From: Escherichia coli
GTDB taxonomy: Bacteria > Pseudomonadota > Gammaproteobacteria > Enterobacterales > Enterobacteriaceae
NCBI RefSeq assembly: GCF_003334355.1
Contig: NZ_QOWP01000073.1
Strand: one strand, 5' to 3'
DNA length: 2,519 nucleotides
This document shows, piece by piece, positions 2,273 to 2,345 of this stretch. How positions within the stretch are numbered: position 1 is the first letter of the stretch; each line of letters begins with the position of its first letter. A program made the translations under genes and the position numbers. The notes beneath the pieces were generated by a model. The model saw nothing but the letters and a program-made list of their open reading frames with translations, ran no database searches and was not told the DNA's origin.

Positions 2273-2276
2273 TACT

Positions 2277-2314
2277 TAACTGGCGCTACGGCTGATGGCG
2301 CCAGTTATTAATTT
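2277..2314 (+). terminator. Rho-independent terminator downstream of panC (possibly serving both convergent genes)
   Basis: Perfect 10-bp stem TAACTGGCGC (2277-2286) / GCGCCAGTTA (2298-2307) with an 11-nt loop, followed by TTAATTT (2308-2314). It begins 5 nt after the panC stop and lies between panC and the convergent small ORF. Confidence 0.6.
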
Positions 2315-2345
2315 ACCCCACGTCATCTGTCATAACACAGGTAAC

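What the first reader, a model, noticed from the sequence alone, without database searches (positions are those of the whole stretch)
2273..2345. Single hairpin terminator shared by convergent panC and the Rpn-like ORF
The 73-nt gap between the two convergent stops contains one perfect 10-bp stem-loop (2277-2307), T-rich on the panC side (TTAATTT) and followed by AGTATTA on the opposite strand. It probably terminates panBC efficiently and the minus-strand transcript less so, which could allow antisense read-through into panC.
Basis: partly seen in the sequence, partly recalled or inferred. Interest (0 to 1): 0.2.

Follow-up and report, generated by a model that had tools for sequence, protein, structure and literature searches.

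The report
panBC terminator hairpin beside truncated rpnC
This is the ordinary stem-loop that ends the E. coli panBC (vitamin B5 synthesis) messenger RNA, already mapped in published 3'-end data, and the gene it was thought to share with on the other strand is, in this strain, only a stub cut off by an IS10 insertion.

Summary
The hairpin is real: arms 2277-2286/2298-2307, a perfect 10 bp that extends to 12 pairs on the + strand. It lies 5 nt after the panC stop, in a 73-nt gap. Window 132-2445 is 100% E. coli K-12. Published K-12 data place the primary panC RNA 3' end at MG1655 147902/147903, which is window 2313-2314, the last U of UUAAUUU and 6-7 nt past the stem. Read-through scores there range from moderate to very low (R = 0.58-0.98). 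So it is the panBC terminator. Termination is not complete: an alternative panC terminus lies 133 nt downstream, and a strong Rho-dependent region lies antisense to rpnC on the same strand. The opposite orientation is weaker by sequence, and no rpnC 3' end was listed in the data I could read, although rpnC-panC is a published pair with overlapping transcription. In this window rpnC is only a 32-codon remnant, because IS10 starts at 2446. The 51-aa minus-strand ORF is an IS10-rpnC chimera. Any minus-strand RNA reaching the hairpin would come from IS10 (Pout, inferred). Comparison of 80 genomes suggests the hairpin arrived with the rpnC insertion between panC and panD. Verdict: ordinary and already known.

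The parts
1421..2272 (+). panC (pantoate--beta-alanine ligase), last gene of panBC; stop TAA at 2270-2272
   Evidence: ORF; 100% identical to K-12 panC, annotated
2277..2307 (+). Terminator stem-loop: 7-bp GC core CTGGCGC/GCGCCAG (2280-2286/2298-2304), three outer A-U pairs, and two inner pairs that form on the + strand only
   Evidence: consensus structure and covariation; drawn identically in the TRS paper's table
2308..2314 (+). Interrupted U tract UUAAUUU; the published dominant panC RNA 3' end (MG1655 147902/147903) maps to 2313-2314, and the peak 147897-147909 maps to 2307-2319
   Evidence: coordinate conversion window = 150216 - genome position, from panC 147944-148795; tail score -3.51
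2268..2276 (-). Tail the minus-strand RNA would have after the hairpin (AGUAUUACG): U-poor, overlaps the panC stop codon; no 3' end reported here
   Evidence: tail score -2.05; 3 T in the first 8; none listed
2313..2344 (-). Weaker second stem-loop on the minus strand directly after the rpnC stop, with no U run after it
   Evidence: Minus-strand fold
2346..2445 (-). 3' remnant of rpnC (yadD): stop codon plus 32 complete codons (AQRLLSKGMSREDVAEMANLPLAEIDKVINLI)
   Evidence: RpnC translation; the K-12 match ends at 2445
2402..2441 (+). 10-bp hairpin CAACGTCTTC/GAAGACGCTG inside the rpnC remnant; in K-12 an 'alternative primary' panC terminus (147769, window-equivalent 2447) lies just after it
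   Evidence: I14, at L001 4771-4810
2446..2519 (+). Outside end of IS10 (bp 1-74), interrupting rpnC
   Evidence: Identical to the IS10 end in L002 4001-4074; next to an IS4-like ISVsa5 (IS10) transposase in J53; thousands of matches in E. coli genomes
2491..2519 (-). 3' part of RNA-OUT (Rfam RF00240, model positions 42-70 of 70), cut off by the window end; shows that IS10 Pout transcription runs towards the rpnC remnant and the hairpin
   Evidence: 30.7 bits, E 0.0029, below the gathering score because truncated
615..1409 (+). panB, first gene of the operon that the hairpin ends

Best explanation
The stem-loop at 2277-2307 followed by UUAAUUU is the Rho-independent (intrinsic) terminator of the panBC operon. 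RNA polymerase transcribing panC forms the 12-pair hairpin 5 nt after the stop codon and releases the RNA in the interrupted U tract, giving a 3' end at 2313-2314 and a 43-nt 3' UTR. The U tract is imperfect, so termination is incomplete. In K-12 some polymerases continue antisense into rpnC, where transcripts end at a second hairpin (window-equivalent 2447) or are stopped by Rho further on. In the opposite orientation the hairpin is weaker and the tail is U-poor, so on its own it is at best a pause site or leaky terminator for minus-strand RNA. The hairpin is not the ancestral panC terminator. It lies at the edge of the block (hairpin + rpnC + rpnC promoter region) that was inserted between panC and panD in the Escherichia/Salmonella/Pseudocitrobacter lineages, and it was taken over as the panBC 3' end. 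In this strain IS10 has cut rpnC 100 nt from its stop, so minus-strand RNA reaching the hairpin can only start in IS10 (Pout or read-out). Shown: hairpin, position, in vivo 3' end, conservation, insertion structure. Inferred: intrinsic mechanism rather than processing, weakness of the reverse orientation, origin with rpnC, Pout read-out.
For: Structure and statistics. In vivo 3' end: the TRS paper (PMC10687069) lists chr(-) 147897-147909, dominant 147902, 'Primary panC', R = 0.886 (LB RNAtag-seq). It also gives 0.577 in a second RNAtag-seq set, and 147903 with R = 0.981 in the sheet that by order is the Dar & Sorek Term-seq re-analysis. R = L/(L+D), where 1 means no local read-through. The terminus is the last U of the tract, 7 nt after the stem, as for the thrC terminator in the same table. 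The 3' UTR is covered about 5-fold more than the panC CDS, as expected for a stable terminal hairpin (Supp Data 4). Tail scores: -3.51 on the + strand and -2.05 on the - strand, with a cut-off of -2.5. Conservation: the hairpin core is identical in all E. coli alleles examined. It is kept when an ERIC-like repeat is inserted between the panC stop and the hairpin (L008, L009, L016), and when rpnC is replaced by other DNA 11 nt after it (L010). Across Escherichia, Pseudocitrobacter and S. enterica arizonae, 92% of cells pair and the three outer pairs show changes on both sides; RNAalifold predicts the same structure. The + strand tail scores better than the - strand tail in 6 of 7 lineages. Origin: tblastn detects RpnC between panC and panD in only 7 of 80 loci (plus a remnant in L035), and most of the other loci share a conserved spacer. 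In K-12 and S. arizonae that spacer sits just upstream of panD, beyond rpnC. IS10 context. Pout read-out into neighbouring DNA: review PMC9330008 and PMC4574204.
Against: The U tract is interrupted (UUAAUUU). The curated Term-seq list of Adams et al. 2021 has no 3' end here in any of three conditions, although panD's is listed. R is only 0.58 in one dataset. A Rho-dependent region on the same strand 280 nt downstream leaves room for the 3' end to arise by exonuclease trimming back to the hairpin. Rho independence and in vitro termination were not tested. Covariation rests on about four independent lineages, and 10 of 500 shuffles reach the observed score. The two stem variants within E. coli are not compensatory (A:C in the B2 type, C:A in the O157 type). 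That the hairpin came with rpnC is inferred from its position at the block edge; it could have evolved after the insertion.
Confidence: 0.78

Rival explanations
1. Shared bidirectional terminator. [quoted passage not shown]
For: K-12 geometry: convergent stops 73 nt apart with one strong hairpin between them. rpnC-panC is listed among 165 convergent pairs whose transcript boundaries overlap in at least 50% of 58 MG1655 transcriptomes. An internal rpn promoter gives a more abundant short transcript for RpnC-S, so minus-strand RNA does reach this region in K-12. If the three A-U base pairs are counted as tail, the minus-strand tail score is -3.19 and passes the cut-off. Collision-type bidirectional terminators need a hairpin but not a canonical U tract. 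In Pseudocitrobacter the two stops are only 41 nt apart and the gap is essentially just the hairpin.
Against: No + strand (genome) terminus for rpnC/yadD appears in any table read, while other convergent pairs in the same sheet show paired termini: can/hpt, mltD/yafE, yajL/thiI. The terminator scan calls the hairpin on the + strand only. Collision termination works best for highly expressed pairs, and panC is expressed at a low level. The SEnd-seq tables of Ju et al. 2019 could not be read. In this window rpnC and its internal promoter are gone, so the arrangement is not operative here.
Confidence: 0.3
2. A processing stop rather than a terminator. Polymerase reads through the hairpin, Rho terminates inside antisense rpnC, and 3'-to-5' exonucleases trim the RNA back to the stable stem-loop, which then marks the apparent panC 3' end.
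For: Rho termination region at 147624 (-), antisense to yadD; counts 273/30 untreated vs 328/610 with bicyclomycin, Rho score 16.9, p 8e-69. An alternative panC terminus lies at 147769. The U tract is imperfect. Trimming of Rho-terminated RNAs back to hairpins is the established finding of Dar & Sorek 2018, cited.
Against: The end lies 7 nt past the stem at the last U of a U-rich run, which is typical of intrinsic release. R = 0.98 in the Term-seq re-analysis means almost no 3' ends in the next 67 nt. With bicyclomycin the downstream signal (610) exceeds the upstream signal (328), which suggests that much of the Rho-controlled RNA starts inside rpnC (spurious antisense promoters) rather than coming from panBC (inference).
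Confidence: 0.15
3. A DNA-level element: the palindrome is the end of a mobile rpn cassette, or a small portable palindromic repeat or recognition site, and its terminator activity is incidental.
For: It lies exactly at the edge of the inserted rpnC block. The 7-bp core is invariant across genera while the loop and outer stem change. The rpnB 3' flank has the same TAACTGGCG motif. A hairpin with the same core lies after panD in Kluyvera, where chance expectation is about 0.04.
Against: No matching direct or inverted repeat at the other boundary of the block. The pattern occurs nowhere else in about 420 kb of held loci, including 92 kb of K-12. The 266-nt query containing it has a median of 1 place per E. 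coli genome. The other rpn paralogs have unrelated hairpins. A GC-rich core is what any terminator stem needs.
Confidence: 0.05
4. A chance inverted repeat with no function.
For: The overall number of terminator-like hits in the window equals the shuffle expectation.
Against: Fold z-scores of -3.3 to -3.7; position 5 nt after a stop codon; an RNA 3' end mapped at it in three datasets; structure kept with changes on both sides across genera.
Confidence: 0.01

Closest known systems
Rho-independent (intrinsic) terminators of E. coli operons
   Same: GC-rich stem-loop directly after the last stop codon, a U-rich tail, and an RNA 3' end 7 nt after the stem at the end of the U run; the hairpin-bearing 3' UTR accumulates relative to the CDS.
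   Different: The U tract is interrupted by two A (UUAAUUU) and the loop is long (7-11 nt). Measured local read-through varies between datasets, and a Rho-dependent back-up lies downstream.
Bidirectional terminators between convergent E. coli genes (Ju et al. 2019, SEnd-seq; collision model of Wang et al., bioRxiv 10.1101/2022.10.23.513370)
   Same: One hairpin in a short gap between convergent genes; overlapping transcription reported for the pair; the reverse side lacks a canonical U tract.
   Different: Only one of the two 3' ends is documented. The pair is lowly expressed, whereas collision termination works best for highly expressed pairs. Here one partner is destroyed by IS10.
Convergent excludons (ExcludonFinder, NAR 2025, PMC12288877)
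   Same: rpnC-panC is itself in the published MG1655 list, as are yfcH-rpnB and rpnA-bioH.
   Different: That list rests on coverage thresholds only. Mutual exclusion of panBC and rpnC expression has not been shown, and the overlap may be just the shared hairpin.
Hairpin-protected 3' ends of Rho-terminated transcripts (Dar & Sorek 2018)
   Same: A stable stem-loop upstream of a Rho-dependent region on the same strand.
   Different: The end lies in a U run 7 nt from the stem, with very little signal just downstream in Term-seq, which fits direct release better.
REP/BIME and ERIC dispersed palindromic repeats
   Same: An intergenic palindrome after a stop codon. An ERIC-like repeat does insert right next to it in O157 and E. 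albertii.
   Different: The hairpin itself is single-copy in E. coli (median 1 place per genome) and bears no resemblance to the dispersed repeat, which has a median of 6 places per genome.

Membership tests
Intrinsic (Rho-independent) terminator | Stable GC-rich stem-loop, with a stem of about 5-14 bp | tested here: met
   12 pairs, 6 of them G-C, -18.0 kcal/mol on the + strand
Intrinsic (Rho-independent) terminator | U-rich tract directly 3' of the stem | tested here: met
   + strand: 5 T in the first 8, tail score -3.51 vs cut-off -2.5, but interrupted (UUAAUUU). - strand: 3 T in 8, -2.05, which fails
Intrinsic (Rho-independent) terminator | Lies at the end of a transcription unit, just after a stop codon | tested here: met
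   The stem starts 5 nt after the panC stop; panC is the last gene of panBC
Intrinsic (Rho-independent) terminator | In vivo RNA 3' end about 7-9 nt after the stem | tested here: met
   From published tables, not from my own data: 147902/147903 = window 2313-2314 in three datasets. Absent from the curated list of Adams et al.
Intrinsic (Rho-independent) terminator | Termination independent of Rho (in vitro, or with bicyclomycin) | not testable with these tools
   No per-site bicyclomycin data for this 3' end could be read; a Rho region exists 280 nt downstream
Bidirectional terminator of a convergent gene pair | Lies between two convergent, transcribed genes | tested here: not met
   Met in K-12. 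In this window rpnC is reduced to 100 nt by IS10
Bidirectional terminator of a convergent gene pair | 3' ends of both transcripts map to the two sides of the same hairpin | tested here: inconclusive
   panC side yes. No rpnC/yadD terminus in the tables read. The SEnd-seq tables are not held
Bidirectional terminator of a convergent gene pair | Overlapping sense/antisense transcription across the element | tested here: met
   Literature only: rpnC-panC is in the MG1655 list of overlapping convergent pairs
REP/ERIC-type dispersed palindromic repeat | Many similar copies per genome | tested here: not met
   Median of 1 place per genome for the 266-nt query. The pattern is absent from 92 kb of other K-12 DNA. 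By contrast the neighbouring ERIC-like insert has a median of 6 places
Rfam RNA families | Match to a curated covariance model at the hairpin | tested here: not met
   No hit at 2270-2345 even at E <= 1. The only meaningful hit is RNA-OUT at 2491-2519

The most novel reading that the evidence does not exclude
The CTGGCGC...GCGCCAG palindrome is a small module that travels with rpn-type insertions, or moves on its own, to convergent gene junctions: panC/rpnC in Escherichia, Pseudocitrobacter and S. arizonae, and panD/yadE in Kluyvera. It would act as a bring-your-own insulator that gives the host operon a new 3' end and shields it from the inserted toxin gene. In this strain the IS10 Pout promoter would now fire into its weak side and make antisense panC RNA.
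Probability: 0.08. Interest if true: 0.4.

Novelty: already known. Interest (0 to 1): 0.12.

Why it matters
It matters little beyond correct annotation. The element is the panBC terminator of E. coli K-12, its RNA 3' end is already in published tables, and the panC-rpnC pair is already listed among convergent pairs with overlapping transcription. Two modest points are worth keeping. First, the terminator appears to have been acquired together with the rpnC toxin-antitoxin gene that split the ancestral panBCD cluster, an example of an operon taking over the 3' structure of an inserted gene. Second, in this strain IS10 has replaced rpnC as the source of any convergent transcription, so anyone measuring pantothenate gene expression in such IS-rich laboratory strains should check for antisense RNA.

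Tried and rejected
1. I looked for the source genome. No complete E. coli genome has either IS junction. BE104 has IS1 in yadC but at a different site, and XL10-Gold has an IS10/Tn10 end at a different position. 2. 3'-end supplements of Dar & Sorek 2018, Choe et al. 2022 and ExcludonFinder are not held as text, and Ju et al. 2019 is not in the library. The rpnC-side 3' end therefore could not be checked in SEnd-seq. 3. Rfam gave nothing at the hairpin. 4. The idea that the hairpin is the ancestral panC terminator is rejected: most genera lacking rpnC share a different, conserved panC-panD spacer, which in E. coli lies upstream of panD. 5. The idea that all rpn genes carry this hairpin is rejected: the K-12 paralogs have unrelated hairpins in their convergent gaps, and only rpnB shares a 9-nt motif. 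6. The idea of a repeat-bounded mobile cassette is rejected: there is no matching repeat at the far boundary. 7. Within-E. coli variation gave no compensatory changes, only two single mismatches at the stem base. Covariation had to come from other genera and is thin. 8. The promoter scan found no sigma-70-like site on the minus strand between IS10 and the hairpin.

Full report
WHAT THE WINDOW IS. Window 132-2445 is 100% identical to E. coli K-12 MG1655. It holds the 3' part of yadC (to 501), panB (615-1409), panC (1421-2272), a 73-nt gap, and the last 100 nt of rpnC (formerly yadD) on the minus strand (2346-2445). The two edges are foreign to this locus. Bases 1-131 are the end of IS1. Bases 2446-2519 are bp 1-74 of the outside end of IS10: they are identical to the IS10 end in L002 and lie next to an IS10-type transposase in strain J53. 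Rfam finds the 3' part of RNA-OUT on the minus strand at 2491-2519. No complete E. coli genome in the collection has either junction. The window therefore looks like a short contig from an IS-rich K-12-type strain. The 'Rpn-like ORF' of the finding (2346-2501, 51 aa) is a chimera: 19 codons come from IS10 and 32 are the C-terminal codons of RpnC.

THE OBSERVATION. The hairpin is exactly as described. Its arms are 2277-2286 and 2298-2307, 10 bp, perfect, 11 nt apart. On the + strand two inner pairs extend it to 12 pairs, and the consensus scan calls it a terminator with tail TTAATTTACC. It is not called on the minus strand. Fold z-scores are -3.3 to -3.7 on the + strand and -2.7 to -3.3 on the - strand. 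The hairpin is worth -18.0 kcal/mol on the + strand and -15.2 on the - strand, because the G-U pairs become C-A mismatches in the complement. A TransTermHP-style tail score is -3.51 for the + strand and -2.05 for the - strand, with a cut-off of -2.5. If the three A-U pairs at the stem base are counted as tail, the minus strand reaches -3.19.

DIRECT EXPERIMENTAL EVIDENCE FROM THE LITERATURE. The sequence is K-12, so published 3'-end maps apply. The conversion is window = 150216 - MG1655 coordinate, from panC 147944-148795. The TRS paper (Nat Commun 2023, PMC10687069) lists a 'Primary' panC terminus on the minus strand with peak 147897-147909 and dominant position 147902, with this same hairpin drawn at -18.8 kcal/mol. 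That position is window 2314, the last U of UUAAUUU and 7 nt after the stem. The thrC terminator in the same table follows the same convention. Their statistic R = L/(L+D) equals 1 when no 3' ends follow in the next 67 nt. R is 0.886 in their LB RNAtag-seq data and 0.577 in an earlier RNAtag-seq set. It is 0.981 (position 147903) in the sheet that, by the order given in their Supplementary Data 1, is the re-analysis of the Dar & Sorek Term-seq data (the sheet assignment is my inference). The 43-nt 3' UTR is covered about five times more than the panC CDS. The hairpin therefore marks the panBC mRNA 3' end.

TERMINATION IS NOT COMPLETE. The same paper lists an 'alternative primary' panC terminus at 147769 (R = 0.59), which is 133 nt further on and just after a second hairpin (window 2402-2441). 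Adams et al. 2021 (eLife, PMC7815308) have no curated Term-seq end at panC in three conditions, although panD's end is listed. They do report a Rho termination region at 147624 on the panC strand, antisense to yadD, with Rho score 16.9 and p 8e-69. Part of that Rho-controlled RNA probably starts inside rpnC, because with bicyclomycin the downstream signal exceeds the upstream signal; this is my inference. These data keep a rival alive, in which the hairpin is where exonucleases stop after Rho termination. I rate it lower, because the end lies in the U run and Term-seq shows almost nothing just downstream.

THE OTHER STRAND. No rpnC/yadD terminus appears in any table I could read. In the same sheet other convergent pairs do show paired termini: can/hpt, mltD/yafE and yajL/thiI. 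On the other hand, ExcludonFinder (NAR 2025, PMC12288877) lists rpnC-panC among 165 convergent pairs whose transcript boundaries overlap in at least 50% of 58 MG1655 transcriptomes. It lists yfcH-rpnB and rpnA-bioH as well. Zhong et al. 2023 (PNAS, PMC10400941) show that rpn genes have an internal promoter giving a more abundant short transcript for the antitoxin RpnS. In K-12, then, minus-strand RNA does reach the hairpin, and a shared or bidirectional role in the sense of Ju et al. 2019 and Wang et al. is plausible but not demonstrated. The SEnd-seq tables that could settle it are not held.

THIS STRAIN. IS10 is inserted after window 2445, in rpnC codon 268. The last 9 bp before IS10 are CGCTGGGCG, a 5/6 match to the Tn10 hotspot GCTNAGC as I recall it. 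Both RpnC-L and RpnC-S are therefore truncated, and the rpnC promoters are separated from the hairpin by the IS. The orientation of the RNA-OUT match means that the constitutive outward promoter Pout points at the rpnC remnant, the weak side of the hairpin, and panC. Pout transcripts are known to extend into neighbouring genes, at roughly 10% of lacUV5 strength. Antisense RNA entering panC is thus possible here, but it would be IS10-driven. This is inference, because Pout itself lies beyond the window end.

COMPARATIVE EVIDENCE. Within E. coli the region falls into two allele groups: about 3,000 genomes at 95% identity or more, and about 2,400 at 80-90%. The hairpin core and loop are identical in all alleles fetched. 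The only variants are single mismatches at the stem base (A:C in the B2 type, C:A in the O157 type), and these are not compensatory. The hairpin is retained when a dispersed ERIC-like repeat (median 6 places per genome) is inserted between the panC stop and the hairpin, as in O157, L009 and E. albertii. It is also retained when rpnC is replaced by other DNA 11 nt after it, as in strain PKF4.

COMPARISON ACROSS GENERA. I fetched 80 panC loci of Enterobacteriaceae. tblastn detects an RpnC homologue between panC and panD in only seven of them: Escherichia, Pseudocitrobacter and UBA5654. A remnant is visible in S. enterica arizonae. In the other loci panD follows panC on the same strand, and most of them share a conserved spacer (ACAGGGGTTAAAAATCGGGCAATACTGCC, then a second hairpin). 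In K-12 and S. arizonae that ancestral spacer lies directly upstream of panD, beyond rpnC. The hairpin, rpnC and the rpnC promoter region therefore form one inserted block that starts within about 10 nt of the panC stop.

COVARIATION AND THE MOBILE-ELEMENT IDEA. The hairpins of these lineages share the 7-bp core CTGGCGC/GCGCCAG but differ in loop and outer stem. In the alignment 92% of cells pair, and three pairs show changes on both sides in two lineages each. RNAalifold predicts the same structure. With about four independent lineages this is supportive but not strong (10 of 500 shuffles reach the score). No repeat pairs the hairpin with the far boundary of the block. The other K-12 rpn paralogs have unrelated hairpins. 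I therefore do not read it as the end of a mobile element.

VERDICT. Three parts of it fail. 'Efficient' is overstated. 'Shared' is unproven. The convergent partner is not intact in this window. The element and its 3' end are already in published datasets, so the finding is ordinary and already known.

Noticed in passing
window 1-131: End of IS1 (3' end of insB, stop at 112-114) joined to yadC at about nt 870 of the gene. The fimbrial adhesin gene yadC is therefore disrupted. No complete E. coli genome in the collection has this junction; BE104 has IS1 in yadC at another site.
   Followed up: partly
window 2446-2519: IS10 outside end inserted in rpnC codon 268. The last 9 bp before it (2437-2445, CGCTGGGCG) resemble the Tn10 hotspot GCTNAGC. 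The insertion truncates both the RpnC-L toxin and the RpnC-S antitoxin.
   Followed up: partly
window 2346-2501 (-): The 51-aa ORF is an IS10-rpnC chimera. Its ATG lies in IS10, inside the region transcribed as RNA-OUT. It is probably not a real gene.
   Followed up: partly
window 505-541: Perfect 13-bp hairpin CGTAGCAGCACTG/CAGTGCTGCTACG right after the yadC stop (499-501), the strongest fold in the window (-21.7 kcal/mol). It is likely the yadC terminator. The consensus scan missed it because of its 11-nt loop and U-poor tail.
   Followed up: partly
L093 14046-14075; L095 10602-10650; L096 11919-12163; L094 12804-13043: All five K-12 rpn genes converge on their 3' neighbour across short gaps: rpnA/bioH 28 nt, yfcH/rpnB 47 nt, panC/rpnC 73 nt, rpnE-ypaA/yfaU 40 nt, rpnD/yjiR 243 nt. 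Three of these pairs are in the published list of overlapping convergent pairs.
   Followed up: partly
L095 10603-10649: The rpnB 3' flank carries TAACTGGCG 17 nt after its stop, the same motif as the rpnC-proximal arm of the hairpin. Its partner arm lies inside the yfcH coding end. This may be paralogous flank homology.
   Followed up: no
L022 3014-3041; L086 3024-3051: In Kluyvera a hairpin with the same CTGGCGC/GCGCCAG core lies 6 nt after the panD stop, ahead of the usual panD/yadE hairpin. Chance expectation for the pattern in the DNA held is about 0.04. Unexplained.
   Followed up: partly
L008 494-700; L009 494-620; L016 about 2353-2484: A dispersed ERIC-like repeat (median 6 places per E. 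coli genome) is inserted between the panC stop and the hairpin in O157, another E. coli lineage and E. albertii. The O157 copy carries an extra internal insert.
   Followed up: partly
L002 4001-4310: XL10-Gold has a short Tn10/IS10-end remnant whose end abuts window-equivalent 2273, directly between the panC stop and the hairpin. It is joined to yfbM, which marks a rearrangement breakpoint.
   Followed up: no
L001 5807-5890 and most of L018-L092: The ancestral panC-panD spacer has a motif conserved across many genera, AAAAATCGGGCAATACTGCC (a small hairpin), then AAAGCAGG..CCTGCTT with a T-rich tail, just upstream of panD. It may be a panD leader or attenuator.
   Followed up: no
L013: A contig labelled as an uncultured Oscillospiraceae MAG carries E. 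coli panC (99% aa identity) with the B2-type hairpin allele and rpnC. This is most likely a binning contaminant.
   Followed up: no
L005 and L007 575-772: B2-type E. coli have an extra small ORF (RpnC/YadD family, 65 aa) between the hairpin and full-length rpnC. It matches the duplicated antitoxin gene rpnC-Ss described by Zhong et al. 2023.
   Followed up: partly
MG1655 147624 (-), outside the window (K-12 equivalent about 2592): A strong Rho-dependent termination region lies antisense to rpnC (score 16.9). With bicyclomycin the downstream signal exceeds the upstream signal, suggesting antisense promoters inside rpnC.
   Followed up: partly
PMC10687069 Supplementary Data 3: The legend says the fold sequence spans 40 nt upstream to 10 nt downstream of the terminus. 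The listed sequences actually span 50 upstream to 1 downstream, and the U-tract sequence spans 10 upstream to 20 downstream. I checked this on panC and thrC.
   Followed up: yes
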